Sequence record: MH719082.1
Length of the DNA stretch: 64,000 nt
From: Escherichia phage vB_EcoM_IME392
Strand: one strand, 5' to 3'
Shown: positions 10,512 to 45,335 of the stretch, one piece after another
How the letters are laid out: every line of letters begins with the position of its first letter
Position numbering within the stretch: position 1 is the first letter of the stretch
Notes under the pieces: model-generated
What the model was told of the DNA's origin: nothing
Databases searched by the model: none
Seen by the model: the letters and a program-made list of their open reading frames with translations, nothing else
Translations under genes and position numbers: made by a program

Positions 10512-10586
10512 TGGGGCCGCCGGAGGCCGCCCCACCCAAAAGAACGGGCTTTAAACCCGTTCATAATTCGTTTATTTGAAAAATAA
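10512..10586 (-). repeat. composite conserved intergenic element, family B, copy 1
   Basis: GC-rich hairpin + CACCCAAAAGAACGGGCTTTA + spacer + CGTTTATTTGAAAAATAA. Confidence 0.5.
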
Positions 10587-10588
10587 TT

Positions 10589-10831
10589 TTACCACTGCTC
10601 GATAGACTTCTCTACTGCTTGTGGAAAGAGAGTCTTAGCCTTTTCCATAGCCATCTGGGATGGACCACTATGGTCCCAGTTAGGCAGCAAGTGCATCTCA
10701 GTAGGCTTAGGGAACAGACCGCGCAGCTTATTAACGCAGCTGGCGTAGACAGCATCAGAGCGAGTAAGGTGCTGGGAGCGGATATAATCGTTATACTGCC
10801 GTTGATCTTTGGCGAATACCAGAATGGCCAT
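10589..10831 (-). CDS. hypothetical protein
   Basis: ORF track. Confidence 0.45.
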   Translation of the reverse strand: MAILVFAKDQRQYNDYIRSQHLTRSDAVYASCVNKLRGLFPKPTEMHLLPNWDHSGPSQMAMEKAKTLFPQAVEKSIEQW

Positions 10832-11286
10832 TATTTATAATCCCTAATTAATTTTAAGATATCTTCGTTTAATACAGATGCGAGGTTAGGCTTATCTTCC
10901 AGAATACGTTTAGCATTCAGGATCTCAGACTTCCTCTTAGATAGAGGCTTATCCCGATTAATGAGATAAGCCAATTTCTCCTGGGTATCGACTAAGATAC
11001 CAGTAAGAGTCGGATGGAACCACTTAACCTGCTTGTCATAAGCATCCTGTTCAGTAGTTCCGTGGAAGAGTAATCCTTCGCTCACCAGCTTCAGACAGGT
11101 AGAGATGTTTGCCATGTTCACAGAATTATTATCTGTGCGGCATTCATAACCACCATTCTCTACAGCTGTATGCAGGATCTTGGTTCTGTCCATTAATTTA
11201 AAAGCCATCAGCGAACCTATAGATTCCGATTTCAGATTTATCCTGGTCAGATAAGTGACCCTGACGGTACATAACCAATCCATCAC
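10831..11286 (-). CDS. hypothetical protein
   Basis: ORF track; true start may be internal. Confidence 0.45.
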   Translation of the reverse strand: MMDWLCTVRVTYLTRINLKSESIGSLMAFKLMDRTKILHTAVENGGYECRTDNNSVNMANISTCLKLVSEGLLFHGTTEQDAYDKQVKWFHPTLTGILVDTQEKLAYLINRDKPLSKRKSEILNAKRILEDKPNLASVLNEDILKLIRDYK

Positions 11287-11358
11287 GAGTCCGGATTATG
11301 TCATCTGGGCAGATAGGCTTTAGCCTACTTATGACCATCAATGCTCTTACCCATTCCA

Positions 11359-11565
11359 TTAGCGGACCTTAGTTAAGTTGCCTCCGCTCACGTAAGGATG
11401 TTGTGAGCGGTAGACTGTTGAACTGAATTCCTGGGTAATAGACTTACATCCACTTCTATACCCAGGATCGTCAGGACTGCGAGGAGTATTCATGGCGGAG
11501 CCTTCCCGAATCATCTTCAGGAAGCGCTCCTCCTGCTCCTTAGTTTTAAAGAGCTTATATCCCAT
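11359..11565 (-). CDS. hypothetical protein (68 aa)
   Basis: Internal ATG at 11565 with GAGGT RBS. Confidence 0.4.
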   Translation of the reverse strand: MGYKLFKTKEQEERFLKMIREGSAMNTPRSPDDPGYRSGCKSITQEFSSTVYRSQHPYVSGGNLTKVR

Positions 11566-11572
11566 AATTACC

Positions 11573-11869
11573 TCAGAAGGAGATATGGACGTCGACAGGA
11601 TGCTTCGTAGCAGGAGTAGACTGCTCCACATCTGACAGTTTAGAGAACAGATCCTGGAGAGGAATGATCTCGCCTTCGACGAAGAGGTTATCCACGCTCT
11701 TGATTACTTTCGCCTTATTTTTATCCAGCACGATAAACGTCGTGGAGATAAAGTAGTCATGGTAGCGAGTATTCGGATGGAGATCGATATTAGTGATCTC
11801 TGCCAGATTCTTAGACTGGGCCGCACGCAGCAGGGCTCGGTGCTTAGACTTAATGATTACGGAAGGCAT
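11573..11869 (-). CDS. hypothetical protein
   Basis: ATG at 11869 with GGAG RBS. Confidence 0.45.
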   Translation of the reverse strand: MPSVIIKSKHRALLRAAQSKNLAEITNIDLHPNTRYHDYFISTTFIVLDKNKAKVIKSVDNLFVEGEIIPLQDLFSKLSDVEQSTPATKHPVDVHISF

Positions 11870-11871
11870 GG

Positions 11872-12252
11872 TTAGCTCCACATTAGATTTGTTGTTATCA
11901 GTGTATAGGTATGACTGATTGCAGCTAAGGCGGTCAGCATCTTCGACAATTTAACCAGGAACTTAATTTGATCCACAGCCAGATTCTCGTGTTGCTCATC
12001 AAGAAGAGCTGAGGTCCTTAAGGACAGACCCAGCAGATCTATAGGTTGAGCAACTCGCTCCGCTAAGCTTCCGCATAGACCATCTTCGGTTTCCACCTGA
12101 ATTAATTGGTCTACAATAGTGTTGTAGTGAATCGGGAGGAGGTCATCCTTGTTAATAGTGTCCCGTAACCCAACAAGACTCGTCGTTACGATCTTGACGT
12201 TATCTTCATCTACTACGTGGCCACCAACTACGGCTCTGAAGTATACAGACAT
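11872..12252 (-). CDS. hypothetical protein
   Basis: ORF track. Confidence 0.45.
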   Translation of the reverse strand: MSVYFRAVVGGHVVDEDNVKIVTTSLVGLRDTINKDDLLPIHYNTIVDQLIQVETEDGLCGSLAERVAQPIDLLGLSLRTSALLDEQHENLAVDQIKFLVKLSKMLTALAAISHTYTLITTNLMWS

Positions 12253-12261
12253 AGCGGCACC

Positions 12262-12573
12262 TTACTTATTCAGGTCGAGGAAGAAACGAGCACGATGGCT
12301 TAGAGAGTATAAATTGCACGGACGACCACCCTCTTCCGAGGCAGTAGTCGTTTTGATCAACCAGCCATCCTTCTCCAACTTATTACATACATAGTAGATG
12401 GATGTACGAGGGATTTGACCCAGTGATGCTTTGCTATCAGCAAAGACAGTTAACTCGTTGATCGTGGCTCCCGAAGCGGTTCCGGAGATATACCACAGAA
12501 TCATCGAGGAAGAATTAGATAGACGATACAGACGAGAGATAAGGAACAGTTTAGCGATATCGATGTTTTTCAT
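12262..12573 (-). CDS. putative winged-helix DNA-binding regulator
   Basis: Small protein with helix-turn-helix-like core; TATAAT and AGGAG upstream. Confidence 0.45.
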   Translation of the reverse strand: MKNIDIAKLFLISRLYRLSNSSSMILWYISGTASGATINELTVFADSKASLGQIPRTSIYYVCNKLEKDGWLIKTTTASEEGGRPCNLYSLSHRARFFLDLNK

Positions 12574-12604
12574 AATAACTCCTAACAGATTAGATTATAC
12601 TATA

Positions 12605-13018
12605 TTAACGGAAAGATTCGTTCGCAGCTACGGTGCATAGGGACGGAAGGATCAGATCATTAGCGTCACTGAGATCTTCCTTAGTCGCACCAGTTTTCTC
12701 TACGGATAGAGTTGTAACTACTTCTACCGGATCCAGATGAATCAGGGAGCGGATCACTGCTGGCTTACCATCAGACCCTATACCATTAAACTGGACGATT
12801 GCTGACTTATGCCCATGATCCATAACAGGCAGGACCATCGCTTCTTTAGCAGAGTACAACACTTCAGCAAGACTGTACTCTGGACACTCTTCCACATACG
12901 ACTTAGCCAAGAGTGCAGTAATGACATCAGCTTCCATAGCAGAAGCTACACGAGGATCTTTACCAGCATGGGCTGTGACTGATGCCAGAATCAAAGAAGC
13001 AGCAATTAATTTCTTCAT
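12605..13018 (-). CDS. secreted/periplasmic protein
   Basis: N-terminal signal peptide MKKLIAASLILASVTAHA. Confidence 0.55.
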   Translation of the reverse strand: MKKLIAASLILASVTAHAGKDPRVASAMEADVITALLAKSYVEECPEYSLAEVLYSAKEAMVLPVMDHGHKSAIVQFNGIGSDGKPAVIRSLIHLDPVEVVTTLSVEKTGATKEDLSDANDLILPSLCTVAANESFR

Positions 13019-13030
13019 TTTATCACCAAG

Positions 13031-13249
13031 TTATGCAATACGAGTTACGGAAAGTTCGGTTTTAACATCGCGTGTGTCAGCACGCATCGGCAGGTACTCT
13101 ATCTCCTGATAAGCAAGCTCCGGCTCCATAAATTTGTACCACGTCTGGAATTGCTCTATCAGCTTACGAGCACTCGGAGCATTACCCTGGATGGTGAAGG
13201 AGTGGACACCATTGACCTGGACAGCAAGACGGTAGCGGAGCTTGTTCAT
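13031..13249 (-). CDS. hypothetical protein (72 aa)
   Basis: Internal ATG at 13249 with AAGGGGA RBS. Confidence 0.4.
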   Translation of the reverse strand: MNKLRYRLAVQVNGVHSFTIQGNAPSARKLIEQFQTWYKFMEPELAYQEIEYLPMRADTRDVKTELSVTRIA

Positions 13250-13259
13250 GAGGATCCCC

Positions 13260-13634
13260 TTATTTTGCTTCTTTAGTGAAAGTCGGACGACGAACCATGA
13301 TTTCGCCATTCATACCAACCACGAACTGAGCAATACGGTGGCCATTCGAACCACCATCGTGGTGCTCGTAGCGGTAACCAACTTCGAACCATGCACCAGT
13401 CTTGTCATCCAGAGGGCCTCCGGAGATATGGATCCACATGGATTTGAACATCGGGATGTTCATCTGGCACATAACGTCCTCGGTAGAACCACTCACGTAA
13501 ACCTGACCACGTACTTCGCGGACTTCTGGAGTAGCCACCAAACCGGACATATTGATCATTGATTCTACTTCTGCCAGCATGTTCTCGAAAGCAGTTTTAG
13601 CGTCGAACTTTTGAATGAATTCTTGGTTAGTCAT
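13260..13634 (-). CDS. hypothetical protein (124 aa)
   Basis: ATG at 13634 with GGAG RBS; ORF-track start at 13748 runs through a terminator hairpin. Confidence 0.5.
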   Translation of the reverse strand: MTNQEFIQKFDAKTAFENMLAEVESMINMSGLVATPEVREVRGQVYVSGSTEDVMCQMNIPMFKSMWIHISGGPLDDKTGAWFEVGYRYEHHDGGSNGHRIAQFVVGMNGEIMVRRPTFTKEAK

Positions 13635-13666
13635 AATTAGCTCCAAATTATAAAGGGGAAGAATTA

Positions 13667-13684
13667 GGAGGACCGAAGTCCTCC
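13667..13684 (-). terminator. UUCG-tetraloop hairpin (terminator-like)
   Basis: GGAGGAC-UUCG-GUCCUCC followed by U-rich sequence. Confidence 0.5.
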
Positions 13685-13693
13685 AGATTGGAA

Positions 13694-13978
13694 TCAGAAC
13701 TGGACGTCTACTTCTTCGAAGATCGCTTCGAACAGACCATCCTCGCACTTAGCCACCACGGCACCGGTACCTGGGTCCAGCATCTCGACTGTATCAGAAC
13801 CGTCGGAAGCGAAGTGACTTTCTTCAGGAAACACTTCTGGACCAGTGTAAGCTTTGAAACCGATGATCTTTTCACCAACCGCACTTACCCAGTTGGAATT
13901 GTAGTTTACTGAAACACCCATGTAGTCAGTTACCAGAGTGTCATTTGCCAGAGCAGCGAGCAGTTGAGCGATTTTCAT
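13694..13978 (-). CDS. hypothetical protein (94 aa)
   Basis: ATG at 13978; ORF-track start at 14038 would overlap a conserved intergenic element. Confidence 0.45.
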   Translation of the reverse strand: MKIAQLLAALANDTLVTDYMGVSVNYNSNWVSAVGEKIIGFKAYTGPEVFPEESHFASDGSDTVEMLDPGTGAVVAKCEDGLFEAIFEEVDVQF

Positions 13979-14011
13979 AGTTTTATCCCAAATTAGACGA
14001 TTTGATGAACC

Positions 14012-14093
14012 GGGAAGCGCCTTGACGCCCCCGCCCACAAGAACGGGCTTTAGGACGGTTCAAAAATCGTTTATTTGAAAAATAAAACGTTTT
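14012..14093 (-). repeat. composite conserved intergenic element, family B, copy 2
   Basis: Same core CCCACAAGAACGGGCTTTA...AAAAATCGTTTATTTGAAAAATAA. Confidence 0.5.
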
Positions 14094-14442
14094 ATTTTTC
14101 GTGTCGAACGATGGTATCAATACAGTCCATATCCATGATAACGAAGATTACAGACTCCCCATTATCTTCCACTACCTTAAGCACCTGCCATCCTTGCTCC
14201 ATAAAGACTTCTCTCATAGCGGCAAGATCTCGCACATGCATAAGCTCGGTAACTGTAATCACTCTGGGACGAATGAACTTCTTCAGAGTTATCTCGTAAA
14301 GATAGGTCCCATAGTTCTTGTAGAGATTATCTACATTACAGGTATACAGACCTAACTCGGGACCCCACCCCTGCGATAAGGTCTGGATGAGCTCATAACT
14401 AGGCCAATCCCATTTATGCTTACTACGATGATACAGAATCAT
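14092..14442 (-). CDS. hypothetical protein
   Basis: ORF track. Confidence 0.45.
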   Translation of the reverse strand: MILYHRSKHKWDWPSYELIQTLSQGWGPELGLYTCNVDNLYKNYGTYLYEITLKKFIRPRVITVTELMHVRDLAAMREVFMEQGWQVLKVVEDNGESVIFVIMDMDCIDTIVRHEK

Positions 14443-14728
14443 TAGCTACCACCTTATGATAAAATCTTCCGGTAGTGTGGATTACAGTAGCTATGTACTT
14501 AGCGTCCACTTCAGTGCCTAGCAGATTAGATACCGCCTTAATTACAGTTGCTGCTGGGTGTTTATGGTTAATTACCACATCCAGCATCTTACGATCGGCA
14601 GATGGGAAGAACTTCTTATTCCGACGAGCAATATTCTTAACCACCATGTTGGGATCATCGGATGTGTAACCAGCTATGGCCATGGTGGTCAGTAAGTCAA
14701 AGAATTCGACTGGTTTAGTGGACTTCAT
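14423..14728 (-). CDS. hypothetical protein
   Basis: ORF track. Confidence 0.45.
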   Translation of the reverse strand: MKSTKPVEFFDLLTTMAIAGYTSDDPNMVVKNIARRNKKFFPSADRKMLDVVINHKHPAATVIKAVSNLLGTEVDAKYIATVIHTTGRFYHKVVANDSVSS

Positions 14729-14783
14729 ATCGTACCTTAACGAGTAAATAAAAATAGGCTGTTAACCGAGGGCGCTCCCCAAG

Positions 14784-14813
14784 TTAACAGCCTTTGGACC
14801 GTATTAAACGGCG
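14784..14813 (-). promoter_or_regulatory. 31-bp conserved intergenic motif (variant)
   Basis: TTAACAGCCTTTGG...AAACGGCGG; additional upstream inverted copy GGCTGTTAAC forming 10-bp stem. Confidence 0.45.
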
Positions 14814-15148
14814 GCAGTCAGGAAGTTACTGGAGATCAGGAAATCATCCAGAGCTACTTCTGTATTCTTAGGAGTATTGTCTAACTCCCATTCACCTACT
14901 CCCAAACGGATCTTAGCCACGCCAGGAGCAATCTCTTCAATAGCTAGCTTAGAGCCACCGATTATCTGGAGGCGAAGAGCATTTACAGCTACTGCATACC
15001 CAGAGAACGCAGTCTCTACCTGGTGACGGAACTCCTGGTCGGAATTAACCTTAGCAGCGTAAGCAGCAGGTTCCATACCCAGTTGCTTAGCATACATCAG
15101 ATGAAACATGTCCAGGTTAATTTTGTTACCAGTAGTCTTCTTAGTCAT
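14804..15148 (-). CDS. hypothetical protein
   Basis: ORF track. Confidence 0.45.
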   Translation of the reverse strand: MTKKTTGNKINLDMFHLMYAKQLGMEPAAYAAKVNSDQEFRHQVETAFSGYAVAVNALRLQIIGGSKLAIEEIAPGVAKIRLGVGEWELDNTPKNTEVALDDFLISSNFLTAAV

Positions 15149-15665
15149 TCTTGATTTCCTCAGCAGTTACGCCAGTGATGTTTAAATACAGATCGGTAGG
15201 TAATTCTGGTAGGGTAGAGACATCCAGATTCTCTACGTCCTTAGCCAGAGTTATGTGAGGAGAGTATTCCGCACTGATCTCAGACGGCACCTCTCCAGAG
15301 GCACGGAGTCGATAGTTAAACGACTGTAGCAGATCGCTATCGAACGCCAGCACCAGGTAGTTAGCATTCTCACCAAAGATCTCATAGCGAGGATTCTTCA
15401 GATGAAGTTTGCTACCCACCAGATCAGCAATAGTTCCCTCATCCGGAGCACCAGTCCCCGGAGCATACATAAGGGTGCAGTGGTTATCGTGACCGGTATC
15501 GAAGTTAAGCTTATCATAATCAGCTACTTCGGAGATAACCTGCTTAAGATTATCTATCCAGGCATCAGAGTCTGGACAGAATTTTACCGAGGAGTAACCC
15601 TCGTCCACGGACTGTACAAGTCCTAACACTACTTCAGCTTTATTCATTTTTATCACCATGGCCAT
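15141..15665 (-). CDS. 2H phosphoesterase superfamily protein (LigT-like)
   Basis: Two H-x-T-x motifs (HCTLMY, HITLAK) with spacing typical of 2H phosphoesterases. Confidence 0.5.
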   Translation of the reverse strand: MAMVIKMNKAEVVLGLVQSVDEGYSSVKFCPDSDAWIDNLKQVISEVADYDKLNFDTGHDNHCTLMYAPGTGAPDEGTIADLVGSKLHLKNPRYEIFGENANYLVLAFDSDLLQSFNYRLRASGEVPSEISAEYSPHITLAKDVENLDVSTLPELPTDLYLNITGVTAEEIKND

Positions 15666-15952
15666 GGTAGTTTATTTTCGGGCTCCTGCCTATAGTAGGA
15701 GCATTTGATACCCAACGATTCCACAATACTTACAGGAATCTTATCAGTTACTTCAGAGTCTTGATAGATTGGTCCGAATACTGATACGTTTGGATCTTGC
15801 AACAGTTCAGATACTAATCCGGCTTCTTCATAAGTATCGAAGAATGCTGCGGTAGTATCCGGATTACAGCCGAGACCGGTCCATGAGGTGTAAAACTCGT
15901 TTACTCCACAGAGAGCACCGTGCTCCTTATGCACCACTAAAAATCCCAGCAT
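15653..15952 (-). CDS. hypothetical protein
   Basis: ORF track. Confidence 0.4.
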   Translation of the reverse strand: MLGFLVVHKEHGALCGVNEFYTSWTGLGCNPDTTAAFFDTYEEAGLVSELLQDPNVSVFGPIYQDSEVTDKIPVSIVESLGIKCSYYRQEPENKLPWPW

Positions 15953-16457
15953 CTGTGTATCCTTTAAGTTTATTTCTATACTTAACCATTTCCTGCTTAG
16001 CTATCTCATCGCAGAGATTATTTACTTTGTAGCGAGGATTATTGAACTTCTGATGACCTTTGACATGCTTAACCTTAATGGACTTAGGGTTAAGATCGCG
16101 AAGCATTTCCATATGCTTATCTATGAATTCCTTTAGTGCCCATTCGCAATCGCATTGGACGACTACTCTAACGCCATCGAACGCTGTCTTAGTCATGGCG
16201 AACCATAAGGTCTTCATGATCCCTTCTAGCTCTGCCCAGTTATTATCTGCAGCAGTAAATCCTCCGCGAGTTATATGAGCTCGCTGCTCACCAGGAAGAC
16301 GAATCCATCCTCCGAAGCCAGCAGCCTTACTCTTATGACAGTACGATGCATCTGAGAAGATTGTTATATACCCAGTAGGGTCCAGACCGCGTTCGGGAGT
16401 ACCCTCAAAGTGGATAACTCTACCAACATCTTTCTCACCGATAGCAGGTTTCTTCAT
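15927..16457 (-). CDS. RNase H (type 1-like)
   Basis: IFSDASY, WAELEGI and VKHVKGH...NNLCDEIAKQ blocks matching RNase HI catalytic DEDD arrangement. Confidence 0.7.
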   Translation of the reverse strand: MKKPAIGEKDVGRVIHFEGTPERGLDPTGYITIFSDASYCHKSKAAGFGGWIRLPGEQRAHITRGGFTAADNNWAELEGIMKTLWFAMTKTAFDGVRVVVQCDCEWALKEFIDKHMEMLRDLNPKSIKVKHVKGHQKFNNPRYKVNNLCDEIAKQEMVKYRNKLKGYTDAGIFSGA

Positions 16458-18025
16458 TACATATCCACCGTAGTTGCCTGGAATAAACCGACTACCATTT
16501 CATGGCTTGGTTTGACTACCGGACTATCGAAGTCGATAGAGCTATTGATGTTCTGGTTAACCATCATCAGGCTACGTACTTCCCAGCAAGCACGATCAGT
16601 CAGTACACGGTGAATTGCTGCGGTATCACCATCCACGTCCATGTTCTGACCACCCATAGCCATCGGAGGAACCTGAATCTCCTTACCCATGTGAGGTCTG
16701 ACCTTAAATCCCCATACTGAGTAACGGTGTAGGGATGGCGCACGGTTCATGAACACCGTAGCATTCTCACACAGTCTCCAGCATACTTCCAGAGCTACTC
16801 GGGACTTATTCTTGTACATACGCTGGACTTTATTGCTGATGTCGTACATGTTGTACCCTTCGTTAGTCGGGCCACCATATAAGTTCTCCAGCTCACCCAG
16901 GATGTCTGGCTGAAGTAATTCGTACATCATCTTGAACGGTACACCAAGAGTATCCAGCGGAAGATGAGGAGCCGAAGTAACTACAGAACGACCGGAGTAA
17001 TCAACGCGCTTACCTAACAGGTTACCACGGATTCGACCACCCTTACCTTTAAGGTTATTGATCATCGGCTTAATTAAATTACCTCGATAGTCCTTAGTAC
17101 CCTCCAGGATTAGTCCGTTAACCATCTTCTGCATTACAATAGATTCACGAGGAATCAGAGATAACAGCGCTTCGCTGGCCTCGGCAGTATCGCGAATACT
17201 TCTGATACGGATAGCATGGCGCAGGATTCGCAGGTAGAGTAAGTTAGTTGGATGATACGACATTACCCCATTACTGATACCAACATCACGATAGCTAGGA
17301 GGATTCACCAGCACCGTAGTGTTATAGAAGTCGCTGAACTCCGTATAACCACTATTGATTACTGTAGGATCTTCGCATTCTTCGATATAGGCTTTCATAT
17401 CAGCATGGTTAGCTACCAATGCCTGGATAAGGCTTAGGAGACCTAATTCAGATGACTCATGCTCGGACATACGGCGGATCTTGATCATTACTACTGCGAG
17501 GCGCTTCGTGCTATCCTGAACTGGGATAGTGTTAGAGTAGAACATCGCATACTTCTCACGATCTTCATATTCCGGAAGAGCAGCATTAGCCTCACGAACC
17601 CGCTCCCGATCATCGCCAACCATCTTAGCTGCCAAACCAGCTTCCTGGACTACGAAGCGGTATTTACCGATAAGGAACTGACCGAACTCTCGCTCTGGAA
17701 ACCCGAATAACGCAGCCATGCGTTTGATAGCTAATGGATTCACATAAGGAACGATCGTCTCGATGTGACCCATACGGCGGCGACGAGATTCACGATGCAT
17801 CGCTACCATACCGCATACATTACACGGAGGCGCTCCCATAACCATCTGGTTACCACACTCACACTTACCAGTTACCAGAGGTCCGAAGATACGCTGGCAG
17901 AATAACCCACCAGTGAATGGCTTAGGATCATGGAACTTAAGGTTATACATGCCCATACTGGTTACTTCACCACTGGACTCGGCACGGATTACAGCATCAG
18001 TTGCAATAGATAACTTTAATTTCAT
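16457..18025 (-). CDS. multisubunit RNA polymerase beta-prime subunit, N-terminal portion
   Basis: GLFCQRIFGP...CECG zinc motif, RRRRMGHIE, NLLGKRVDYSGRSVV, NRAPSLHR and NMDVDGD (variant of NADFDGD) in canonical order. Confidence 0.85.
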   Translation of the reverse strand: MKLKLSIATDAVIRAESSGEVTSMGMYNLKFHDPKPFTGGLFCQRIFGPLVTGKCECGNQMVMGAPPCNVCGMVAMHRESRRRRMGHIETIVPYVNPLAIKRMAALFGFPEREFGQFLIGKYRFVVQEAGLAAKMVGDDRERVREANAALPEYEDREKYAMFYSNTIPVQDSTKRLAVVMIKIRRMSEHESSELGLLSLIQALVANHADMKAYIEECEDPTVINSGYTEFSDFYNTTVLVNPPSYRDVGISNGVMSYHPTNLLYLRILRHAIRIRSIRDTAEASEALLSLIPRESIVMQKMVNGLILEGTKDYRGNLIKPMINNLKGKGGRIRGNLLGKRVDYSGRSVVTSAPHLPLDTLGVPFKMMYELLQPDILGELENLYGGPTNEGYNMYDISNKVQRMYKNKSRVALEVCWRLCENATVFMNRAPSLHRYSVWGFKVRPHMGKEIQVPPMAMGGQNMDVDGDTAAIHRVLTDRACWEVRSLMMVNQNINSSIDFDSPVVKPSHEMVVGLFQATTVDM

Positions 18026-18040
18026 TTTAATTTCTCCTAA

Positions 18041-18760
18041 TCAAGGCTTAGCGACGACAGTATAGGCTTCACGAACGATTTCACGAGCTACTTTAGCCGC
18101 ATGCTGAGTACCACAATACTGATGCATGTATTTGAACTGCACAGGTTGTTGCTGGCGAAGATGATTGATATAGCGACGAAGAGTAGGATGTGTGACACTC
18201 TGGTCAGCACCACTCACTACCATCATAAACGCAAACATCTTCAAACTAGCTTCACGTTTAGCAGGATATTTCTGCATGATGTAATCGATTACACCGTTCA
18301 CCAGGAGCTTCAGATCACGAGAACGCGCTATGGGTGATTTCTGGTCTGGGCTAATGGAAGCAGGATCGATTAATTCCACACGACTTTCGCCATCATCGTC
18401 CGTTACGAGAGTAGACTCGTTAAAGGACATTATGTGACGACGATCCATCGTTTCTTTATCTTCGTGACGAGTATCACCAGTTTTAGCCATATAACCAGTT
18501 GGGTTAACTACCCGAAGATACTCATGCGACACGATAGAGTCAGCAACGTATGGATTATTATTGACACGAGCAATGTTACGGTCTAGAGAACGTAAATCTC
18601 CTGAATCTAATGCGCTATCATAGAAGGATAAGTCGATGTACTCGTCCCCAGTGTTAGCAATGTTGAATGTTTCATGGAACTTATAGTTAGCGGTCATTGG
18701 TCTATCCCAATTAGAGAATTCAAAGAGCGACCGCGAGGCCGCTCGGTTACCTGCTATCAA
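18041..18760 (-). CDS. hypothetical protein (between the two RNAP genes)
   Basis: ORF track. Confidence 0.5.
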   Translation of the reverse strand: MIAGNRAASRSLFEFSNWDRPMTANYKFHETFNIANTGDEYIDLSFYDSALDSGDLRSLDRNIARVNNNPYVADSIVSHEYLRVVNPTGYMAKTGDTRHEDKETMDRRHIMSFNESTLVTDDDGESRVELIDPASISPDQKSPIARSRDLKLLVNGVIDYIMQKYPAKREASLKMFAFMMVVSGADQSVTHPTLRRYINHLRQQQPVQFKYMHQYCGTQHAAKVAREIVREAYTVVAKP

Positions 18761-19095
18761 AGCGCGAAGTAATACCAGTCACCATAAACGCGAATCAGCA
18801 CTTCCTGACTTTCTGCGTCCACATTAGTGAAGTAGAAGCTACCGAATCCGAACTCCAGAGACTCACCAGTCTGCATGAGATCTGCCATTTCATCCATGAA
18901 CTTATCGAAGTCTGGATCACGGTCCTGAACTACAGCGACTTCCACCTCCTTGGCGTACAATTCAGAACGACCAATATGAGGAGCAGCCTGGCGGAACTCC
19001 ATTACAGCACCACGAGCCAGATTTTCCTCAGCAGCATCCCGAACAGAGTCAGTATCGATTGTAGCGAAAGATTTAATCGCATTTAAACGTGACAT
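18757..19095 (-). CDS. hypothetical protein
   Basis: ORF track. Confidence 0.45.
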   Translation of the reverse strand: MSRLNAIKSFATIDTDSVRDAAEENLARGAVMEFRQAAPHIGRSELYAKEVEVAVVQDRDPDFDKFMDEMADLMQTGESLEFGFGSFYFTNVDAESQEVLIRVYGDWYYFAL

Positions 19096-19123
19096 AGTAT
19101 TAGCTCCAAATTAGATTATCCAG

Positions 19124-19196
19124 TGAAGCGCGACCGCACCCCACCCAAAAGAACGGGCTTTATGAGCTCCCAAAAATCGGTTATTTGAAAAATAAA
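19124..19196 (-). repeat. composite conserved intergenic element, family B, copy 3
   Basis: CACCCAAAAGAACGGGCTTTA...CCCAAAAATCGGTTATTTGAAAAATAA. Confidence 0.5.
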
Positions 19197-22083: not shown

Positions 22084-22547
22084 AAAGCCTCCAGAACTAA
22101 GTGGACGTTATTCCCTACGCTGTCATTTACAACGATATGGGATTTAAACTTATACATTTCGTTGATCACATCAGTCATGTGAATCACCGGAATATACACT
22201 CGGTCAGAACCAACTACTGCAACTTCATTAAGCCAGTCATAGTCGATTTCATGGGTCTTCAGGAGATTTATGAGATCACGGTACATAAGGCTTACAGACT
22301 TGATTCCACCACTCATACGAGCAGACCAGTCTGTAGCCGGAACTGATTCAATTTCCTTCCTACCTTTCATCTTACGGCGAAAGATGGCGGACTGAACGTT
22401 CCATAACTCTGAGAATTCTTGATCGGGGATTTCTCGACCATGCTTGGTCCGAGAGACCAGTCGAGCTTGAGGATCGGCATTAGGACGGAACTGCTCAGCG
22501 ATAGAAGGAGCAGCTTGTTGGAAGGCAGCGAAAAGGGATGTAGACAT
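22080..22547 (-). CDS. hypothetical protein (155 aa)
   Basis: Internal ATG at 22547 with GGAGA RBS; longer ORF would overlap conserved element. Confidence 0.45.
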   Translation of the reverse strand: MSTSLFAAFQQAAPSIAEQFRPNADPQARLVSRTKHGREIPDQEFSELWNVQSAIFRRKMKGRKEIESVPATDWSARMSGGIKSVSLMYRDLINLLKTHEIDYDWLNEVAVVGSDRVYIPVIHMTDVINEMYKFKSHIVVNDSVGNNVHLVLEAL

Positions 22548-22584
22548 GACTTTCTCCAGTCTTTCAAGGTCGCAGGCAACGCGA

Positions 22585-22675
22585 CGGATCATTCGGCGGG
22601 AAACGCCCCGCCCCAAGTGAACGGGCTGTGGGGCGTCTCAAACTTCGCCAGGAAGCGTCTTTTTGAAACTATTTT
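22585..22675 (-). repeat. composite conserved intergenic element, family B, divergent copy
   Basis: GGCGGG-aaacg-CCCCGCC hairpin + CCCAAGTGAACGGGCT... + T-rich tail. Confidence 0.35.
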
Positions 22676-22678: not shown

Positions 22679-22918
22679 TTAGAATCCCTGGGTAGCAATC
22701 ATGTAAACCAGGTTAGTTATCCCAGCCTCATCCGAGGAATCAAGGCCGATTCCTTTAAGGACTTCTGCAGGAACATGCTCACGAATAGCCGGAACCAGAG
22801 CAGCATGGTTACCTTTATCAAACTCTTCCCAAGACTCAGCTGGGATTGCCTCGACCAGTTCACTGAAAGAGGTGGTAGTGATGATTTCATCGTAGCGGGA
22901 TTGAGAAATGATTGTCAT
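22679..22918 (-). CDS. hypothetical protein
   Basis: ORF track; TATAAT and GGAG upstream. Confidence 0.45.
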   Translation of the reverse strand: MTIISQSRYDEIITTTSFSELVEAIPAESWEEFDKGNHAALVPAIREHVPAEVLKGIGLDSSDEAGITNLVYMIATQGF

Positions 22919-22943
22919 GATTTAACTCCGTATTATAATGAAC

Positions 22944-23048
22944 GGCGAAGCGGCCAACCCGCTCCACCCAAAAGAACGGGCTTATCTGACGTCCAAAGTT
23001 CGTTTTATTTTTCAAAAACATTTCGACAATGAAAAATATTTTTGAAAA
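22944..23048 (-). repeat. composite conserved intergenic element, family B, copy 4
   Basis: CACCCAAAAGAACGGGCTTA...GTTCGTTTTATTTTTCAAAAA...TTTGAAAAATA. Confidence 0.45.
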
Positions 23049-23051
23049 ATA

Positions 23052-23065
23052 GGCCATCCCTGGCC
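23052..23065 (-). terminator. intrinsic terminator-like hairpin
   Basis: GGCCA-GGGA-UGGCC followed by UAUUUUUC, just after stop of 23073-24533. Confidence 0.45.
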
Positions 23066-23072
23066 TAATGAA

Positions 23073-37490: not shown

Positions 37491-37514
37491 TATTAATCCT
37501 CGCTACACAAAAAT

Positions 37515-37541: not shown

Positions 37542-37557
37542 GTACGCCTCTGACACC

Positions 37558-37588: not shown

Positions 37589-38959
37589 AGTTTCCTTAGC
37601 CAAGAATACTTTAGGTACAAAGATCTTGAGGAACCCGAATAGAATACACAATACCCCAATCAGTACCGGAACAGCCGATACAGCTACCAGAGTCTTCGTT
37701 ACAGTTACTACGTCACCACCTGCCCAGTTAAGTGCAGCAGCAACTACACCCATGCTTACAATCCAGAATACACGAGTTCTAGGAGCGGTCATGGACTCTA
37801 CCGTAATACCTGCTGAGTCATGACCTGTAATAAAGAACAGAATCACAGACACGAGGGTAATTACTGAGAATATCCATCCGCCTGGGAAATTAGCCAGAAG
37901 CTGGAAGATATCCTGAGCACCATGTTGCAAACCGGCTACACCGAATACGGTAAACCATACGTTACTGATAATGGTAGGGAACAGTACACATCCCAGGATC
38001 AGTTCGCGAATAGTACGGCCGTAAGAGATACGTGCCACAAACGCTCCGACGAATAATGCCCAACCTACCCAGGCTGCATAGTAAGCATAAGGCCAGCTAG
38101 CCAGCCATTGCTTCTCTTCAGCAGTACTGCCAATGTTTACCGACATAGGAATAATCTGGAGCAGATAGCTGCCAGAATAGGTGATGGTCTTCCAGAGGTA
38201 TTCAAAGAATGTACCACTTACAGCAACGAATGCCATAATAGATAGAGCTACGATTACATTATATCTGGATAACCACTTAACCCCACGATCGACACCAGTT
38301 ACGGCACTAAGTACAGTGCCCAGAGTCAGGAGTGCGATAATGGTGTAAGGACCAACATCCACACCAAGGAACTCTTTAAATCCAGAACTGATCGGGCCTA
38401 CTGCGTAGACGAACGACAGGGTTAAGCCTATGATGGTCGAGAAGAGTAAGCTTATCGTATTAAGGTTATTCAGAGTTCGGGACTTGAATAACTGATTAAG
38501 CGGACGGTCTTCACCACGTACATGCAGTAAGTACCCGAATGCCACCCCTACGACTGCATACACAGCCCATGCATTAAGTCCCCAGTCAAAGAAGGTAGTT
38601 ACCATATTCTGACGTTCGGACATACCCTCCTGATGATGGTACATAGGTTCGAGTACGCCATAATAAATCATGGATACACCCATACCGGTACTAAACATCA
38701 TAGAGTAATAGGTAAAGCGATTGTATTTCGGAGTACCTTTACCCAGCTTAATGTTACCATGTTTGCTGAATACAAAGAATGCCAGGAACGCCAGGAAGAT
38801 CAGCGAAGACCAGGTAAATATGAATCCATACTGAGATATAAATACAGACTTACTCCAGTCCATTACAGCACCAAACTGGGTGGGAGCAAACATAATGGCG
38901 AGTACAATACCCACCGTTACCAGCACCGTCCCCCAGGTAACTACCTTTGAATCGGACAT
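37577..38959 (-). CDS. BCCT family transporter (betaine/carnitine/choline-type)
   Basis: Multi-pass membrane protein; FVGAFVARISYGRTIRE matches the BCCT signature. Confidence 0.8.
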   Translation of the reverse strand: MSDSKVVTWGTVLVTVGIVLAIMFAPTQFGAVMDWSKSVFISQYGFIFTWSSLIFLAFLAFFVFSKHGNIKLGKGTPKYNRFTYYSMMFSTGMGVSMIYYGVLEPMYHHQEGMSERQNMVTTFFDWGLNAWAVYAVVGVAFGYLLHVRGEDRPLNQLFKSRTLNNLNTISLLFSTIIGLTLSFVYAVGPISSGFKEFLGVDVGPYTIIALLTLGTVLSAVTGVDRGVKWLSRYNVIVALSIMAFVAVSGTFFEYLWKTITYSGSYLLQIIPMSVNIGSTAEEKQWLASWPYAYYAAWVGWALFVGAFVARISYGRTIRELILGCVLFPTIISNVWFTVFGVAGLQHGAQDIFQLLANFPGGWIFSVITLVSVILFFITGHDSAGITVESMTAPRTRVFWIVSMGVVAAALNWAGGDVVTVTKTLVAVSAVPVLIGVLCILFGFLKIFVPKVFLAKETPPV

Positions 38960-44053: not shown

Positions 44054-44088
44054 AATTTCTCCGGTCAGGTTTAAATAAGCTCACACAG

Positions 44089-44120
44089 TTTAACAGCCTT
44101 TGGAGGCCTCAAAGGAGCGG
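44089..44120 (-). promoter_or_regulatory. 31-bp conserved intergenic motif
   Basis: Upstream of topoisomerase ATPase gene start at 44053. Confidence 0.5.
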
Positions 44121-44752
44121 TTCACGAACAGGACTAAATCCTCTACTCTGGACTTATCTACCCACTCTGTTCTTCCTGGTAAGGACCTATTAGACTCGGA
44201 GAAGAAAGATAATCTCACTTTTGATTCTAAATCCACTCCCTCTTCTTTAGGCATCTCGATTAAGATTAGCGGGGTCATACCGATGCCTAATCCATCTAAT
44301 CTTCTTTCTATATTTGAAGTAATCCCATATTTAGCATTTCCAGATTGGTCCAATACGATATAAAAGACCACCTTACCTTCTGGAATGGTAGATATCGCTA
44401 GGTTCTTAATCACAGAGTTAGCGTATTCAGGATTCAACCATCGTTTATGATTTGAAGAGGATATCACTTTAGACATCTTCTTCTGGTAGTTCTCATCTTC
44501 CCACATTTTAATGTTGCGATTAGTCATGGAAACAGACCTAGCCCTGGTGGCGCATTCTGATCTTCCACATGTAGGACGATAGCCCTTAATCACGGATTTA
44601 AAGGAGCAGGGTTTTCCACATGAACATATTTTTACAGGAAAGAATTTTAAGTAATATTCATGCGGAGTTAAGCCATGAGATTTGGCATGGGAGGGAAATG
44701 CCTGGCCTCTTACTTCGGCAGAGCATATTCTACATTTATGATTCATAATCAT
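44090..44752 (-). CDS. putative GIY-YIG-like endonuclease with N-terminal zinc-binding region
   Basis: FYIVL...YGITSNIERRL resembles GIY-(x10)-YIG with downstream Arg; N-terminal Cys/His cluster. Confidence 0.35.
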   Translation of the reverse strand: MIMNHKCRICSAEVRGQAFPSHAKSHGLTPHEYYLKFFPVKICSCGKPCSFKSVIKGYRPTCGRSECATRARSVSMTNRNIKMWEDENYQKKMSKVISSSNHKRWLNPEYANSVIKNLAISTIPEGKVVFYIVLDQSGNAKYGITSNIERRLDGLGIGMTPLILIEMPKEEGVDLESKVRLSFFSESNRSLPGRTEWVDKSRVEDLVLFVNRSFEASKGC

Positions 44753-44990
44753 ACCACTTAGTTAATTCAAGGAAGTCATCCATCGCGGAATTAAAGAAGG
44801 AGTCTATCTCCTTAGCCATTTCCTTGGCGAAGCGACCAGATTCGGTCGACATCACTACCTTAGCCTCGCCCATAGGGTGCTTGACCACTTCGTAGATTCC
44901 CAGATTTGGGTAATACACTATGCTGGATAGGAAGTTTACAGACTTAACCACCACAGTATTGAATTGAGTTACTTCCACCATCTTAATCAT
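44736..44990 (-). CDS. hypothetical protein
   Basis: ORF track. Confidence 0.4.
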   Translation of the reverse strand: MIKMVEVTQFNTVVVKSVNFLSSIVYYPNLGIYEVVKHPMGEAKVVMSTESGRFAKEMAKEIDSFFNSAMDDFLELTKWYDYES

Positions 44991-45226
44991 GCTTCACCTA
45001 CCATTTTCAGGAAGGTGTCTACCATAATCGGGTCGAAGCTATCGACATCGGCAGTATGCATCAGGGCGGAGAATAATGAGTTAGCCCAGTGCTCCGTAAC
45101 TCCGTCTTTACCTTCGAGAATTACGCAGTACTGATCTTTGGAAGGATGGTACTGAATCTTAGCAACATTGCGATTCGAGGTCAGGACCAAAATCTTGGTT
45201 CCCGAGATAGTGAAGATTCTAGACAT
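44987..45226 (-). CDS. hypothetical protein (79 aa)
   Basis: Internal ATG at 45226; longer ORF would overlap conserved element. Confidence 0.4.
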   Translation of the reverse strand: MSRIFTISGTKILVLTSNRNVAKIQYHPSKDQYCVILEGKDGVTEHWANSLFSALMHTADVDSFDPIMVDTFLKMVGEA

Positions 45227-45249
45227 ATAATAATCCCAAATTAGAAGAT

Positions 45250-45335
45250 CCGCAGCGGGAACGCCCCGCCACCCAAAAGAACGGGCTTTAGGAGGTCCCA
45301 TAAATCGTTTTATTTTTCATTATTTGAAAAATAAA
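45250..45335 (-). repeat. composite conserved intergenic element, family B, copy 5
   Basis: GCGGG-aacgc-CCCGC hairpin + CACCCAAAAGAACGGGCTTTA...AAATCGTTTTATTTTTCATTATTTGAAAAATAA. Confidence 0.5.

What the first reader, a model, noticed from the sequence alone, without database searches (positions are those of the whole stretch)
10512..45335. Second repeat family: six ~80-bp composite elements (GC hairpin + CACCCAAAAGAACGGGCTTTA + A/T-rich tail)
Copies at 10.5, 14.0, 19.1, 22.6, 22.9 and 45.3 kb share a GC-rich hairpin (e.g. GCGGG-aacgc-CCCGC), the core CACCCAAAAGAACGGGCTTTA, a variable spacer and the tail (A)AAATCGTTTATTTGAAAAATAA. On the coding strand the core can fold as GAACGGG-loop-CCCGUUC followed by UUUU. 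Downstream genes are mostly small unknowns whose start codons are preceded by a second conserved block, (TA)TAATCTAATTTGG(A/G)G, which merges a TATAAT-like hexamer with the RBS. The family is distinct from the 31-bp motif and clusters in the 10-23 kb region of unknown small genes, suggesting a different temporal or polymerase class, or a combined terminator-promoter cassette.
Basis: seen in the sequence. Interest (0 to 1): 0.65.

Follow-up and report, generated by a model that had tools for sequence, protein, structure and literature searches.

The report
Second-class phage promoter–leader cassettes
Six copies of a roughly 110-bp cassette in this coliphage are most likely a second class of phage-specific promoter joined to a leader that starts with an RNA hairpin and ends in a strong ribosome-binding site. 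They drive the genes for the phage's own RNA polymerase beta-prime subunit and many small unknown genes, and they are a sister class of the commoner '31-bp' motif rather than an unrelated element.

Summary
The six copies are real: exactly six exist, all intergenic, all on the coding (minus) strand, 63-82 nt before a start codon. Read on that strand each is: AT-rich block, AAACGA box, 10-nt spacer, core tAAAGCCCGTTCTTTTGGG, GC hairpin of variable sequence, U-rich ribosome-binding region, ATG.

The 21-copy '31-bp' family (F1) shares its skeleton in the same register, so this family (F2) is its sister class. One F1 copy heads the whole gene block, which argues that both are promoters.

The terminator fold proposed for the core exists in only one copy. 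The TATAAT-like block is not conserved. The GC hairpin is kept by copy-specific complementarity rich in G-U pairs, so it is a sense-strand RNA structure.

F2 persists upstream of orthologous genes in a phage with only 30-47% protein identity. Breakpoints against the nearest relative, EP_H11, cluster at the cassettes, as with T4 PeSL cassettes.

Best reading (confidence 0.65): a class-specific, non-sigma-70 promoter plus a 5'-hairpin leader, in a probably thymidine-hypermodified phage. Its transcription start, the polymerase that reads it and its timing are inferred, not shown. New variant of a known kind; interest is moderate.

The parts
10471..10586 (-). F2 copy A, whole cassette: AT block 10572-10586, box plus core 10537-10573, hairpin 10507-10538, translation-initiation region and ATG 10471-10506. 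It drives a 35-aa membrane-like ORF and the 123-aa ORF at 9983-10354.
13976..14085 (-). F2 copy B, whole cassette: AT block 14071-14085 (an AT palindrome runs on to about 14100), box plus core 14036-14072, hairpin 14006-14037, translation-initiation region and ATG 13976-14005. It heads a run of roughly ten small unknown ORFs.
19093..19195 (-). F2 copy C, whole cassette: AT block 19181-19195, box plus core 19146-19182, hairpin 19120-19147, translation-initiation region and ATG 19093-19119. It heads the operon of the 112-aa and 218-aa ORFs, the beta-prime N-terminal half (16457-18025), an RNase H-like gene and an Acb1-like gene.
22545..22674 (-). F2 copy D, the most diverged copy (core ACAGCCCGTTCActTGGGG): box plus core 22614-22650, hairpin 22595-22612, a second hairpin 22569-22585, ATG 22545-22547. 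It heads the operon of the 155-aa ORF and others through the beta-prime C-terminal half (19904-21418).
22916..23049 (-). F2 copy E, whole cassette: extended AT block 23004-23049, box plus core 22969-23005, hairpin 22944-22968, translation-initiation region and ATG 22916-22943. It drives the 79-aa ORF at 22679-22918.
45224..45334 (-). F2 copy F, whole cassette: AT block 45309-45334, box plus core 45274-45310, hairpin 45252-45272, translation-initiation region and ATG 45224-45251. It drives an 80-aa ORF. Homology with EP_H11 breaks exactly at the end of the hairpin.
23050..23067 (-). Conventional intrinsic terminator (TAGGCCAGGGATGGCCTA followed by TTTTT) ending the upstream gene, immediately 5' of copy E's AT block.
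   Evidence: It is conserved in the 80%-identity relative L169.
45353..45368 (-). Conventional terminator hairpin (GGGGTCTTCGGACCCC followed by ATTTTTGTGTAG) directly after the stop codon of gene 45374-48139, 5' of copy F.

Best explanation
Each element is a promoter-leader cassette read on the minus (coding) strand.

**The promoter part**
- The conserved block is AT-rich, then AAACGA, then N10, then tAAAGCCCGTTCTTTTG. It is a second class (F2) of the phage-specific promoter whose main class (F1) is CCGCTCTTTT, then N9, then AAAGGCTGTTAAnnTG.
- The same transcription machinery probably reads both. That machinery is a phage-encoded or phage-modified multisubunit RNA polymerase containing the split beta-prime encoded here. 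The two classes are told apart at a few positions (-16, -10, +4, +6, +10 to +13, +16/17).

**The leader**
- Transcription probably starts at the invariant TG just before the G-run. This is inferred.
- The mRNA would then begin GGGUGGGG... and fold at once into a 5'-terminal GC/G-U hairpin.
- An unstructured U-rich enhancer plus Shine-Dalgarno region (UCUAAUUUGGAG, then N7-9, then AUG) follows.
- The hairpin most likely stabilises the transcript against 5'-end-dependent decay. It could also be a protein-binding or pause signal. Both are inferred.

**Timing and evolution**
- F2 drives the beta-prime genes, an Acb1-like anti-defence gene and many small ORFs. F1 drives replication and nucleotide-metabolism genes. 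The two are therefore probably different temporal or regulatory classes, and F2 is plausibly the earlier one. This is inferred.
- The cassettes also act as recombination junctions for swapping small genes.
For: **Position and orientation**
- There are exactly six copies, all co-oriented with the genes, all intergenic, at a fixed 63-82 nt from an ATG.
- In the complete EP_H11 genome both motif classes occur only on the coding strand of the two blocks where the genes lie on the record's + strand. Neither occurs in the late structural block.

**Relationship to F1, and F1 as a promoter**
- The two families share a skeleton in the same register.
- They cross-detect each other.
- F1 at 61184 is the only conserved motif in the divergent intergenic region that heads the whole minus-strand gene block. 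No sigma-70-like site lies there.
- Some F1 copies sit 2-7 nt from the Shine-Dalgarno sequence. The transcription start must therefore lie within or at the end of the motif.

**Conservation under selection**
- A Logan contig (L163) whose proteins are 30-47% identical to the window's keeps F2-type cores (AAAGCGAGTTCTTTTGG) with the CGAA box, a GC hairpin and its own ribosome-binding block.
- These sit upstream of the orthologous 155-aa and 218-aa genes.
- Its DNA polymerase gene and its 403-aa gene (orthologous to the 486-aa gene here) keep F1-type cores.
- More distant relatives keep the layout of core, GC hairpin and ribosome-binding block: L164, L165 and Acinetobacter phage Ab1-TPeters.

**The hairpin is an RNA structure on the sense strand**
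- Mean folding energy is -16.5 kcal/mol, against -6.0 for the same segment downstream of F1 cores (Mann-Whitney p = 4e-4).
- The sense strand is more stable than the antisense strand in 17 of 18 copies, because of G-U pairs.
- Each copy's own 3' arm fits its 5' arm better than swapped arms do: 0 of 20000 permutations reach the observed value, and for the six window copies the true assignment is the best of 720.
- 95.8% of cells form standard pairs against 89% in shuffles, four pairs change on both sides, and slid controls give 39-67%.
- By my own reading of the two sequences, the stem substitutions and indels between the window and EP_H11 keep pairing.

**Other points**
- The Shine-Dalgarno region is unpaired in folds of the whole leader.
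- The phage encodes a split bacterial-type beta-prime, and both halves sit in F2-driven operons.
- Sigma-70-like promoters are not enriched.
Against: - There are no transcript data. The transcription start, the polymerase and the timing are all inferred.
- No beta subunit or sigma-like factor was found. The enzyme that would read these sites is therefore undefined.
- If F2 needs the phage beta-prime that it itself drives, then either a virion-borne enzyme or some other first promoter is required.
- Both classes have partial dyad symmetry (AACG..TTT, then N10, then AAA..CGTT). That is more typical of operators than of promoters.
- The hairpin's z-scores against dinucleotide shuffles are modest (mean about -2), and copy D scores +0.3 to +0.5.
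- The covariation alignment was fitted to the model.
- Paralogous copies may share sequence through gene conversion rather than through independent selection.
Confidence: 0.65

Rival explanations
1. Combined terminator-promoter cassette. The core (GAACGGG-loop-CCCGUUC followed by UUUU) terminates the upstream transcript, and a TATAAT-like block next to the RBS is a host sigma-70 -10 element that restarts transcription.
For: - Copy A does form a 9-bp stem followed by TTTT.
- Copies E and F have genuine terminators just upstream.
- TATAAT is present in copies A and E.
Against: - The stem is absent in five of the six copies and in all the relatives' copies (z of -1.4 or higher). The 3' arm is invariant while the supposed 5' arm varies freely.
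- TATAAT is not conserved. Copy B has AATCGT, F has GATCTT and D has none.
- No -35 partner exists on the coding strand, and sigma-70-like sites are below the chance count.
- A start about 7 nt after that hexamer would leave almost no leader before the Shine-Dalgarno sequence.
- Where true terminators exist, they are separate structures 5' of the AT block.
Confidence: 0.08
2. An RNA-level signal rather than a promoter. The conserved core plus hairpin would be transcribed from further upstream. It would then act as a processing site for a host or phage endoribonuclease, or as a nut/put-like antitermination or pause element. That would generate or protect the 5' ends of the downstream cistrons.
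For: - The hairpin is clearly selected at the RNA level.
- The left box of F1, CGCTCTTT, resembles the boxA consensus CGCTCTT(T)A. This is from my own knowledge and was not tested.
- The copies lie between co-oriented genes, where read-through is possible.
Against: - Conservation of the core is at the sequence level with fixed spacing, and shows no consistent pairing.
- An F1 copy sits alone at the head of the gene block, where a promoter is obligatory.
- F1 occurs as a tandem pair upstream of the tRNA region.
- No Rfam family matches, even at E of 1 or less.
- Copies E and F follow strong terminators, so little read-through RNA would reach them.
Confidence: 0.12
3. An operator for a dimeric phage regulator. 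The dyad AACG-N3-TTT-N10-AAA-N3-CGTT would bind a repressor or activator that switches the early block on or off. The actual promoter would be some other, weaker signal nearby.
For: - Partial dyad symmetry is centred near position -5.5 in F2 and -6 in F1 (my own reading of the consensus).
- In Ab1-TPeters the core contains the perfect palindrome AACAGCTGTT.
- A weak PadR-like hit falls in an F2-driven ORF, 12262-12573 (E = 0.0066, below the Pfam cut-off).
Against: - The two half-sites are consistently non-identical, and the imperfections are themselves conserved.
- The motif is strictly orientation-dependent relative to the genes: 27 of 27 here, and all copies in EP_H11.
- No alternative promoter signal was found.
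- This reading can coexist with the promoter reading.
Confidence: 0.1
4. A selfish or neutral repeat: recent local duplications, or a miniature mobile element with no role in expression.
For: - Breakpoints against EP_H11 cluster at the cassettes.
- The copies share about 60-80 bp of sequence.
Against: - Position upstream of orthologous genes is conserved in a phage with 30-47% protein identity.
- Orientation and distance to the ATG are strict.
- The hairpin shows covariation.
- There are no terminal inverted repeats or target-site duplications.
Confidence: 0.03

Closest known systems
PeSL (promoter-early stem-loop) cassettes of T4-type phages (Arbiol et al. 2010, PMC2839356; Comeau et al. 2014, PMC4122927)
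   Same: - Both are short composite regulatory cassettes repeated in regions of small, variable, mostly unknown early genes.
- Indel and replacement junctions between close relatives fall at the cassettes: 7 of 14 breakpoints here, P = 8e-6.
- A stem-loop and a promoter are combined in one unit.
   Different: - PeSLs are a terminator stem-loop followed by a host sigma-70 early promoter.
- Here the promoter-like core is not of the sigma-70 type.
- Here the conserved hairpin lies downstream of the core, in the 5' leader.
- A terminator is present upstream in only two of six copies.
- The phage is unrelated to T4 and carries its own beta-prime.
- No sequence homology to PeSLs was tested.
T7 class III phi10 promoter with the gene 10 leader (my own knowledge)
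   Same: - Both are a phage-specific promoter of about 20-40 bp.
- The transcript would start with a G-run that forms a 5'-terminal stem-loop.
- A U-rich translational enhancer and a Shine-Dalgarno sequence follow.
- The result is a compact high-expression cassette.
   Different: - T7 uses a single-subunit RNA polymerase and a 23-bp promoter of unrelated sequence.
- The start site here has not been mapped.
Promoters of jumbo-phage multisubunit RNA polymerases (phiKZ and AR9; review PMC7598289)
   Same: - The phage carries split homologues of bacterial beta-prime.
- Conserved motifs lie upstream of the phage operons.
- Distinct motif classes exist, presumably for different temporal classes.
- The DNA is (probably) modified.
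   Different: - The known consensuses are an AT-rich motif of about 10 nt at -10 (early), TATG (phiKZ late) and AACA-N6-T(A/G) (AR9 late). None resembles AAAGCCCGTTCTTTTG or AAAGGCTGTTAA.
- The beta-prime here is much closer to bacterial beta-prime (about 30% identity, E about 1e-45).
- No beta subunit and no second polymerase set were found.
- The genome is about 111 kb, so this is not a jumbo phage.
N4 virion RNA polymerase hairpin promoters (my own knowledge)
   Same: A conserved sequence is combined with a short GC hairpin, at early genes of a coliphage.
   Different: - In N4 the hairpin forms in template-strand DNA upstream of the start site, with a 3-nt loop.
- Here the template-strand version is less stable in 17 of 18 copies because the stems rely on G-U pairs.
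- Here the loops are 3-6 nt or longer, and the hairpin follows the conserved core.
Rho-independent (intrinsic) terminators
   Same: A GC-rich hairpin lies next to a T-run. Copy A's core does fit the pattern.
   Different: In the family the T-run precedes the GC hairpin rather than following it. The fold formed by the core itself is absent in five of six copies.

Membership tests
Sigma-70 promoter | A TTGACA-like -35 and a TATAAT-like -10 separated by 16-18 bp on the coding strand | tested here: not met
   The scan of 9-25 kb found 19 sites against 27 expected, and none lies on the coding strand within an F2 element. The TATAAT hexamer occurs in only two of six copies and has no -35 partner.
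Intrinsic terminator | A stable GC-rich stem-loop immediately followed by a U-run | tested here: not met
   The core fold is present only in copy A (z = -3.9) and absent in B-F and in the relatives. The conserved GC hairpin is followed by mixed sequence, not by a T-run.
T4-type PeSL cassette | Repeated composite cassettes that flank small variable ORFs, with indel junctions between close relatives falling at the cassettes | tested here: met
   7 of 14 breakpoints between the window and EP_H11 lie within -60 to +90 nt of an F1 or F2 core. Such zones cover 6.2% of the window; P = 8e-6.
T4-type PeSL cassette | Composition: a terminator stem-loop followed by a sigma-70-type early promoter | tested here: not met
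   The promoter-like core is not of the sigma-70 type. The conserved stem-loop lies 3' of the core. An upstream terminator is present in only copies E and F.
Jumbo-phage vRNAP/nvRNAP promoters | Consensus sequences: an AT-rich motif of about 10 nt at -10; TATG; AACA-N6-T(A/G) | tested here: not met
   I compared the consensus with those listed in PMC7598289 and found no resemblance on the coding strand.
Jumbo-phage vRNAP/nvRNAP promoters | Recognition by a phage-encoded multisubunit RNA polymerase (beta and beta-prime homologues present) | tested here: inconclusive
   A split beta-prime was found. No beta homologue turned up in 50 window and EP_H11 ORFs scanned with Pfam, 10 of them also with PHROGs and 3 against PDB sequences.
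N4-type hairpin promoter | A DNA hairpin on the template strand upstream of +1, with a 5-7 bp stem and a 3-nt loop | tested here: not met
   The template-strand fold is weaker in 17 of 18 copies. Loop sizes vary. The position relative to +1 cannot be tested with these tools.
Any Rfam RNA family | A covariance-model match | tested here: not met
   At gathering threshold only two tRNAs match in the window. A scan at E of 1 or less over 10300-23200 gave 0 hits.
Phage-specific promoter (generic) | A primary transcript 5' end at a fixed distance from the motif | not testable with these tools
   This needs dRNA-seq or 5'-RACE. The only evidence here is positional.

The most novel reading that the evidence does not exclude
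F2 and F1 could be the two promoter classes of a so far uncharacterised transcription system. It would belong to a clade of roughly 110-kb phages with thymidine-hypermodified DNA. These phages encode only a split, bacterial-type beta-prime and no detectable beta.

That points to one of two things: a hybrid host/phage RNA polymerase, or a very divergent phage enzyme. Either would read GC-containing bipartite promoters whose conserved T-tracts are recognised in their hypermodified form, as AR9 recognises uracil. F2 would additionally encode a 5' RNA hairpin with a conserved GCUUC 3' arm, which could serve as a dedicated regulatory handle.
Probability: 0.25. Interest if true: 0.75.

Novelty: new variant of a known kind. 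Interest (0 to 1): 0.45.

Why it matters
- **A testable promoter map.** If correct, this is a first promoter map for a poorly studied group of phages. Members include EP_H11 and probably IME392, with distant relatives infecting Acinetobacter and related sequences in unassigned metagenome contigs. These phages combine hypermodified thymidine with their own bacterial-type beta-prime. The map is 6 F2 and 21 F1 sites in this window, with a predicted start site.
- **Experiments it enables.** It gives defined DNA templates for asking which polymerase transcribes hypermodified DNA, and how two closely related promoter classes are told apart.
- **Genome evolution.** PeSL-like modular gene shuffling at regulatory cassettes would not be restricted to T4-type phages or to sigma-70 promoters.
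- **Practical use.** The cassette (promoter, 5' hairpin, strong ribosome-binding region) is a compact candidate expression module.

Tried and rejected
- **Exact-motif scans of public collections.** IMG/VR gave 0 hits for the F2 core and only chance single hits for the F1 pattern. GTDB genomes gave 37 single hits; the one inspected lay in a bacterial coding region and the rest look like chance matches. No relatives were found this way.
- **The search for related loci with the beta-prime N-terminal half in IMG/VR.** Nothing was found.
- **IME392 record.** It is not in the phage collection.
- **Literature.** I found no description of these motifs, or of transcription in EP_H11, IME392, RP13 or YerA41.
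- **Search for the beta subunit or a specificity factor.**
  - Pfam, PHROGs and PDB-sequence scans of the conserved neighbours of beta-prime and of the other large ORFs were negative.
  - The 486-aa conserved neighbour has 27 remote homologues but no Pfam domain.
  - Its AlphaFold model is mediocre (pLDDT 67, pTM 0.36, mostly helical).
  - That model has no PDB fold match with E below 0.6.
- **Alternative sigma factors, checked by eye.** The sigma-54 spacing GG-N10-GC fits only two or three of six copies. Sigma-32, sigma-E/ECF and sigma-28 have the wrong spacing. All were rejected.
- **Pairing between the upstream box and the core.** There is no consistent pairing or compensation across clades (and my own inspection).
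- **A motif for the late gene block.** None was evident in the EP_H11 late intergenic regions.


Full report
**What the window is.** Window 9000-24000 is 93.8% identical to Escherichia phage EP_H11 (OP688485.1, 111,373 bp), in reverse orientation. A full comparison shows the window covers EP_H11 positions 94.7-111.4 kb and 1-47.1 kb. Nearly all genes in the window lie on the minus strand, so the finding has to be read as its reverse complement.

The phage encodes the following:
- A split bacterial-type RNA polymerase beta-prime. Domains 1-2 are at 16457-18025 and domains 3-5 at 19904-21418.
- A family-A DNA polymerase, helicases, a ligase and gyrase subunits.
- A 5-hmdU DNA kinase (33740-34711). 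EP_H11 annotates the ORF corresponding to 31858-32931 as thymidylate synthase, and its counterpart in the relative L169 carries Pfam Thymidylat_synt.

Two papers list EP_H11 among phages predicted to carry hypermodified thymidine.

**Check of the observation.**
- The 21-nt core occurs 5 times with at most 3 mismatches, against 0 expected.
- A looser pattern finds all six copies, all on the minus strand.
- A position-weight-matrix scan separates exactly six copies (41-56 bits) from everything else (14 bits or less).
- A covariance model recovers the same six.

The first base of the 12-nt core (consensus AAAGCCCGTTCT), read on the minus strand, lies at:
- 10552 (copy A)
- 14051 (copy B)
- 19161 (copy C)
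- 22629 (copy D)
- 22984 (copy E)
- 45289 (copy F)

Every copy is intergenic, and its core lies 63-82 nt upstream of an ATG.

**Anatomy on the coding strand.** The order is as follows, taking position 0 as the first A of AAAG:
1. The stop codon of the upstream gene. In copies E and F a conventional hairpin-plus-T-run terminator follows it.
2. An AT-rich, partly palindromic block, TTATTTTTCAAATAA, at -34 to -20.
3. The box AAaCGA at -21 to -16, then tTtTG.
4. A 10-nt spacer that is loosely G(G/A)(G/A)AC-rich.
5. The core tAAAGCCCGTTCTTTTGGGtGGgG.
6. A GC-rich hairpin whose sequence differs from copy to copy.
7. A U-rich region with a Shine-Dalgarno sequence. It reads TCTAATTTGGRR in copies A, B, C and F.
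8. The ATG.

**What is not a family feature.**
- The proposed terminator fold GAACGGG...CCCGUUC followed by UUUU is strong in copy A (-11.7 kcal/mol, z = -3.9). It is absent in the other five copies and in all the relatives' copies (z of -1.4 or higher).
- The TATAAT hexamer is present only in copies A and E.
- Sigma-70-like sites are not enriched in 9-25 kb (19 against 27 expected), and none lies on the coding strand inside an element.

**Relationship to the '31-bp motif' (F1).**
- F1 has 21 exact AAAGGCTGTTAA cores in the window, all on the minus strand.
- Aligned on AAAG without any gap, the two families share C-18 G-17, T-13 to T-11, A0 A1 A2 G3, C5, G7 T8 T9 and T14 G15.
- The repeat finder pulled F2 copy D into an F1 family.
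- The best non-self hits of each family's matrix or model are copies of the other family.
- F2 is therefore a sister class of F1, not an unrelated element.

**Why promoters.**
1. In the complete EP_H11 genome both classes occur only on the coding strand of the two blocks where the genes lie on the record's + strand (1-59.6 kb and 97.5-111 kb). Neither occurs in the late structural block.
2. F1 at 61184 is the only conserved motif in the 196-bp divergent intergenic region that heads the entire minus-strand block. A promoter is obligatory there, and no sigma-70-like site is present.
3. In some F1 copies the Shine-Dalgarno sequence begins 2-7 nt after the invariant TG. Initiation must therefore occur within or at the end of the motif. 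By analogy I place the F2 start at the TG just before the G-run. This is an inference.
4. Conservation under deep divergence:
   - A syntenic Logan contig (L163) has a beta-prime N-terminal half 47% identical to the window's. It carries F1-type cores upstream of its DNA polymerase gene and its 403-aa gene.
   - L163 also carries four F2-type copies. Each has a CGAA box, the core AAAGCGAGTTCTTTTGG, a GC hairpin and L163's own ribosome-binding block, TTGTTTAGGAGTTA.
   - Two of those F2-type copies sit upstream of the orthologues of the genes behind window copies D and C (30% identity at 4e-28, and 37% at 5e-45).
   - Relatives at 74-80% identity (L162, L169) keep copies C and E.
   - More distant relatives keep the same layout (core, GC hairpin, ribosome-binding block) with drifted sequences. 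These are L164, L165 and Acinetobacter phage Ab1-TPeters, at 37-39% beta-prime identity.

**The hairpin.**
- The 38 nt starting at T14 fold with a mean of -16.5 kcal/mol in the six copies. The same segment downstream of F1 cores gives -6.0 (Mann-Whitney p = 4e-4).
- The mean z against dinucleotide shuffles is about -2.
- The sense strand is more stable than the antisense strand in 17 of 18 copies, because the stems contain many G-U pairs. This points to an RNA structure in the sense transcript, not to a template-strand DNA hairpin.
- Each 5' arm fits its own 3' arm better than other copies' arms do: -15.1 against -10.7 kcal/mol, 0 of 20000 permutations. For the six window copies the true assignment is the best of all 720.
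- On an alignment fitted to a covariance model, 95.8% of cells pair against 89% in shuffles. Four pairs change on both sides, and slid controls give 39-67%. That alignment leans towards the structure.
- By my own reading of the sequences, the stem substitutions and paired indels between the window and EP_H11 keep pairing, mostly through G-U intermediates.
- The stem begins 0-3 nt after T14. A transcript starting at the G-run would therefore carry a 5'-terminal hairpin.
- The Shine-Dalgarno region stays unpaired in folds of the whole leader.
- From established knowledge, 5'-terminal stem-loops protect E. coli mRNAs from 5'-end-dependent decay, and the T7 phi10/gene 10 leader has the same layout. 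The most likely role is therefore transcript stabilisation in a high-expression cassette. A protein-binding role is not excluded, because many 3' arms share GCTTC.

**Gene content and class.**
- F2 copies D and C head the operons that contain the two beta-prime halves.
- Copy C's operon also holds an RNase H-like gene and an Acb1-like anti-CBASS gene (27.7 bits against a cut-off of 27).
- Copies A, B, E and F precede small unknown ORFs.
- F1 precedes replication, nucleotide-metabolism and tRNA genes.
- The assignment of each gene to a class is the same in L163. This suggests a functional, probably temporal, distinction, with F2 plausibly the earlier class. That is an inference.

**Which polymerase.** This is unresolved.
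- No beta homologue or sigma-like protein was detected among the ORFs scanned.
- The conserved 486-aa neighbour has no Pfam domain. Its model is mediocre and mostly helical, and it has no fold match.
- Known jumbo-phage promoter consensuses do not resemble F1 or F2.

**Modular shuffling.** Of the 14 homology breakpoints between the window and EP_H11, 7 lie within -60 to +90 nt of an F1 or F2 core. Such zones cover 6.2% of the window (P = 8e-6). Examples:
- Two ORFs are inserted in the window between F1 14795 and the AT block of F2-B.
- An extra 112-aa ORF in the window follows F2-C, with the junction 11 nt into the ORF.
- In EP_H11 a different small gene follows the F2-F hairpin, with the junction exactly at the end of the hairpin.
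- A 303-aa ORF is present in EP_H11 immediately after the F1 core at 24650.

This is the behaviour described for PeSL cassettes in T4-type phages. The composition of the cassette here is different.

**Verdict.** It is wrong on the terminator, wrong on the TATAAT element, and wrong that the family is independent of the 31-bp motif. The best explanation is a class-specific, non-sigma-70 promoter fused to a 5'-hairpin leader and a strong translation-initiation region. The cassettes also serve as recombination junctions.

Noticed in passing
window, minus strand; first base of AAAGGCTGTTAA at 2095, 9037, 14795, 24650, 28251, 31838, 33694, 35830, 37569, 39910, 40751, 44101, 50129, 55336, 56322, 57787, 59314, 59497, 59555, 60160, 61184: The F1 ('31-bp') family has 21 copies with consensus aa..CCGCtcTTTT-N9-AAAGGCTGTTAAa.TGt..gA.g. 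Many copies carry a G(G/A)AGG about 18-22 nt after the start of the core, even where it cannot be the Shine-Dalgarno sequence. The left box equals the boxA-like string CGCTCTTT, and the whole element is a quasi-palindrome.
   Followed up: partly
window 14744-14795 (-) and 55273-55336: At F1 14795 the core AGGCTGTTAAC is repeated as an inverted copy 16 nt downstream, followed by ATTTTTATTT. This makes a terminator-like hairpin whose 5' arm is the promoter core itself. A second inverted F1 copy lies about 45 nt downstream of F1 55336, across the start codon.
   Followed up: no
window about 37500-37569 (-): F1 37569 is followed, not preceded, by a strong hairpin plus ATTTTTGTGTAG before the next gene (36879-37490). 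The same CCCCATTTTTGTGTAG tail occurs in the terminator upstream of F2 copy F.
   Followed up: no
window 16457-18025 (-), 19904-21418 (-), 18041-18697, 19203-19895, 23073-24533: The beta-prime is bacterial-type (about 30% identical to cellular beta-prime) and split in two, but no beta subunit is detectable anywhere. Three conserved syntenic neighbours (218, 230 and 486 aa) have no recognisable family. The 486-aa protein is predicted to be mostly helical and has no fold match.
   Followed up: partly
window 37577-38959 (-): A full-length BCCT betaine/carnitine/choline transporter gene (Pfam E = 1e-92) sits in a lytic phage genome. That is an unusual auxiliary gene.
   Followed up: no
window 33740-34711, 31858-32931, 2737-3705, 56349-57140, 36879-37490: A 5-hmdU DNA kinase, a thymidylate-synthase homologue (annotated as such in EP_H11, not scanned here), glycosyltransferase-like genes and a PIG-L-type deacetylase. 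Together they fit a glycosylated, hypermodified thymidine pathway.
   Followed up: partly
window 15141-15665 (-): An Acb1-like (anti-CBASS 2H-phosphodiesterase) gene lies in the F2-C operon. It scores 27.7 bits, just above the Pfam cut-off of 27.
   Followed up: partly
window + strand 10467-10494, 19089-19117, 22912-22939: Sigma-70-like matches on the antisense strand overlie the translation-initiation regions of copies A, C and E. The -35 is formed by the complement of ATGTCA/ATGACA, and the -10 by the complement of TAATCTA/TATAAT; the best match scores 11 of 12. The overall count of such sites is not above chance.
   Followed up: no
window 14103-14722, 18793-19084, 24477-24639, 44123-44761, 45246-45252, 58430-58931, 59516-59535, 5510-5790: These are the segments that differ from EP_H11 (gene insertions or replacements, and a tandem F1 duplication at 59497/59555). 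Half of the junctions abut F1 or F2 cassettes.
   Followed up: yes
window 58105-58180 and 58650-58725 (-): tRNA-Met(CAT) and tRNA-Arg(TCT) genes lie downstream of a cluster of F1 copies (59314, 59497, 59555).
   Followed up: no
F2 hairpin 3' arms, e.g. window 14010-14020, 19124-19134, 22946-22956; also L162, L163, L167: Many 3' arms share the string (C)GCTTC(N)C, which pairs through G-U with the conserved GGGGC of the 5' arm. The hairpin is therefore not free to vary entirely, and this could be a recognition motif.
   Followed up: no
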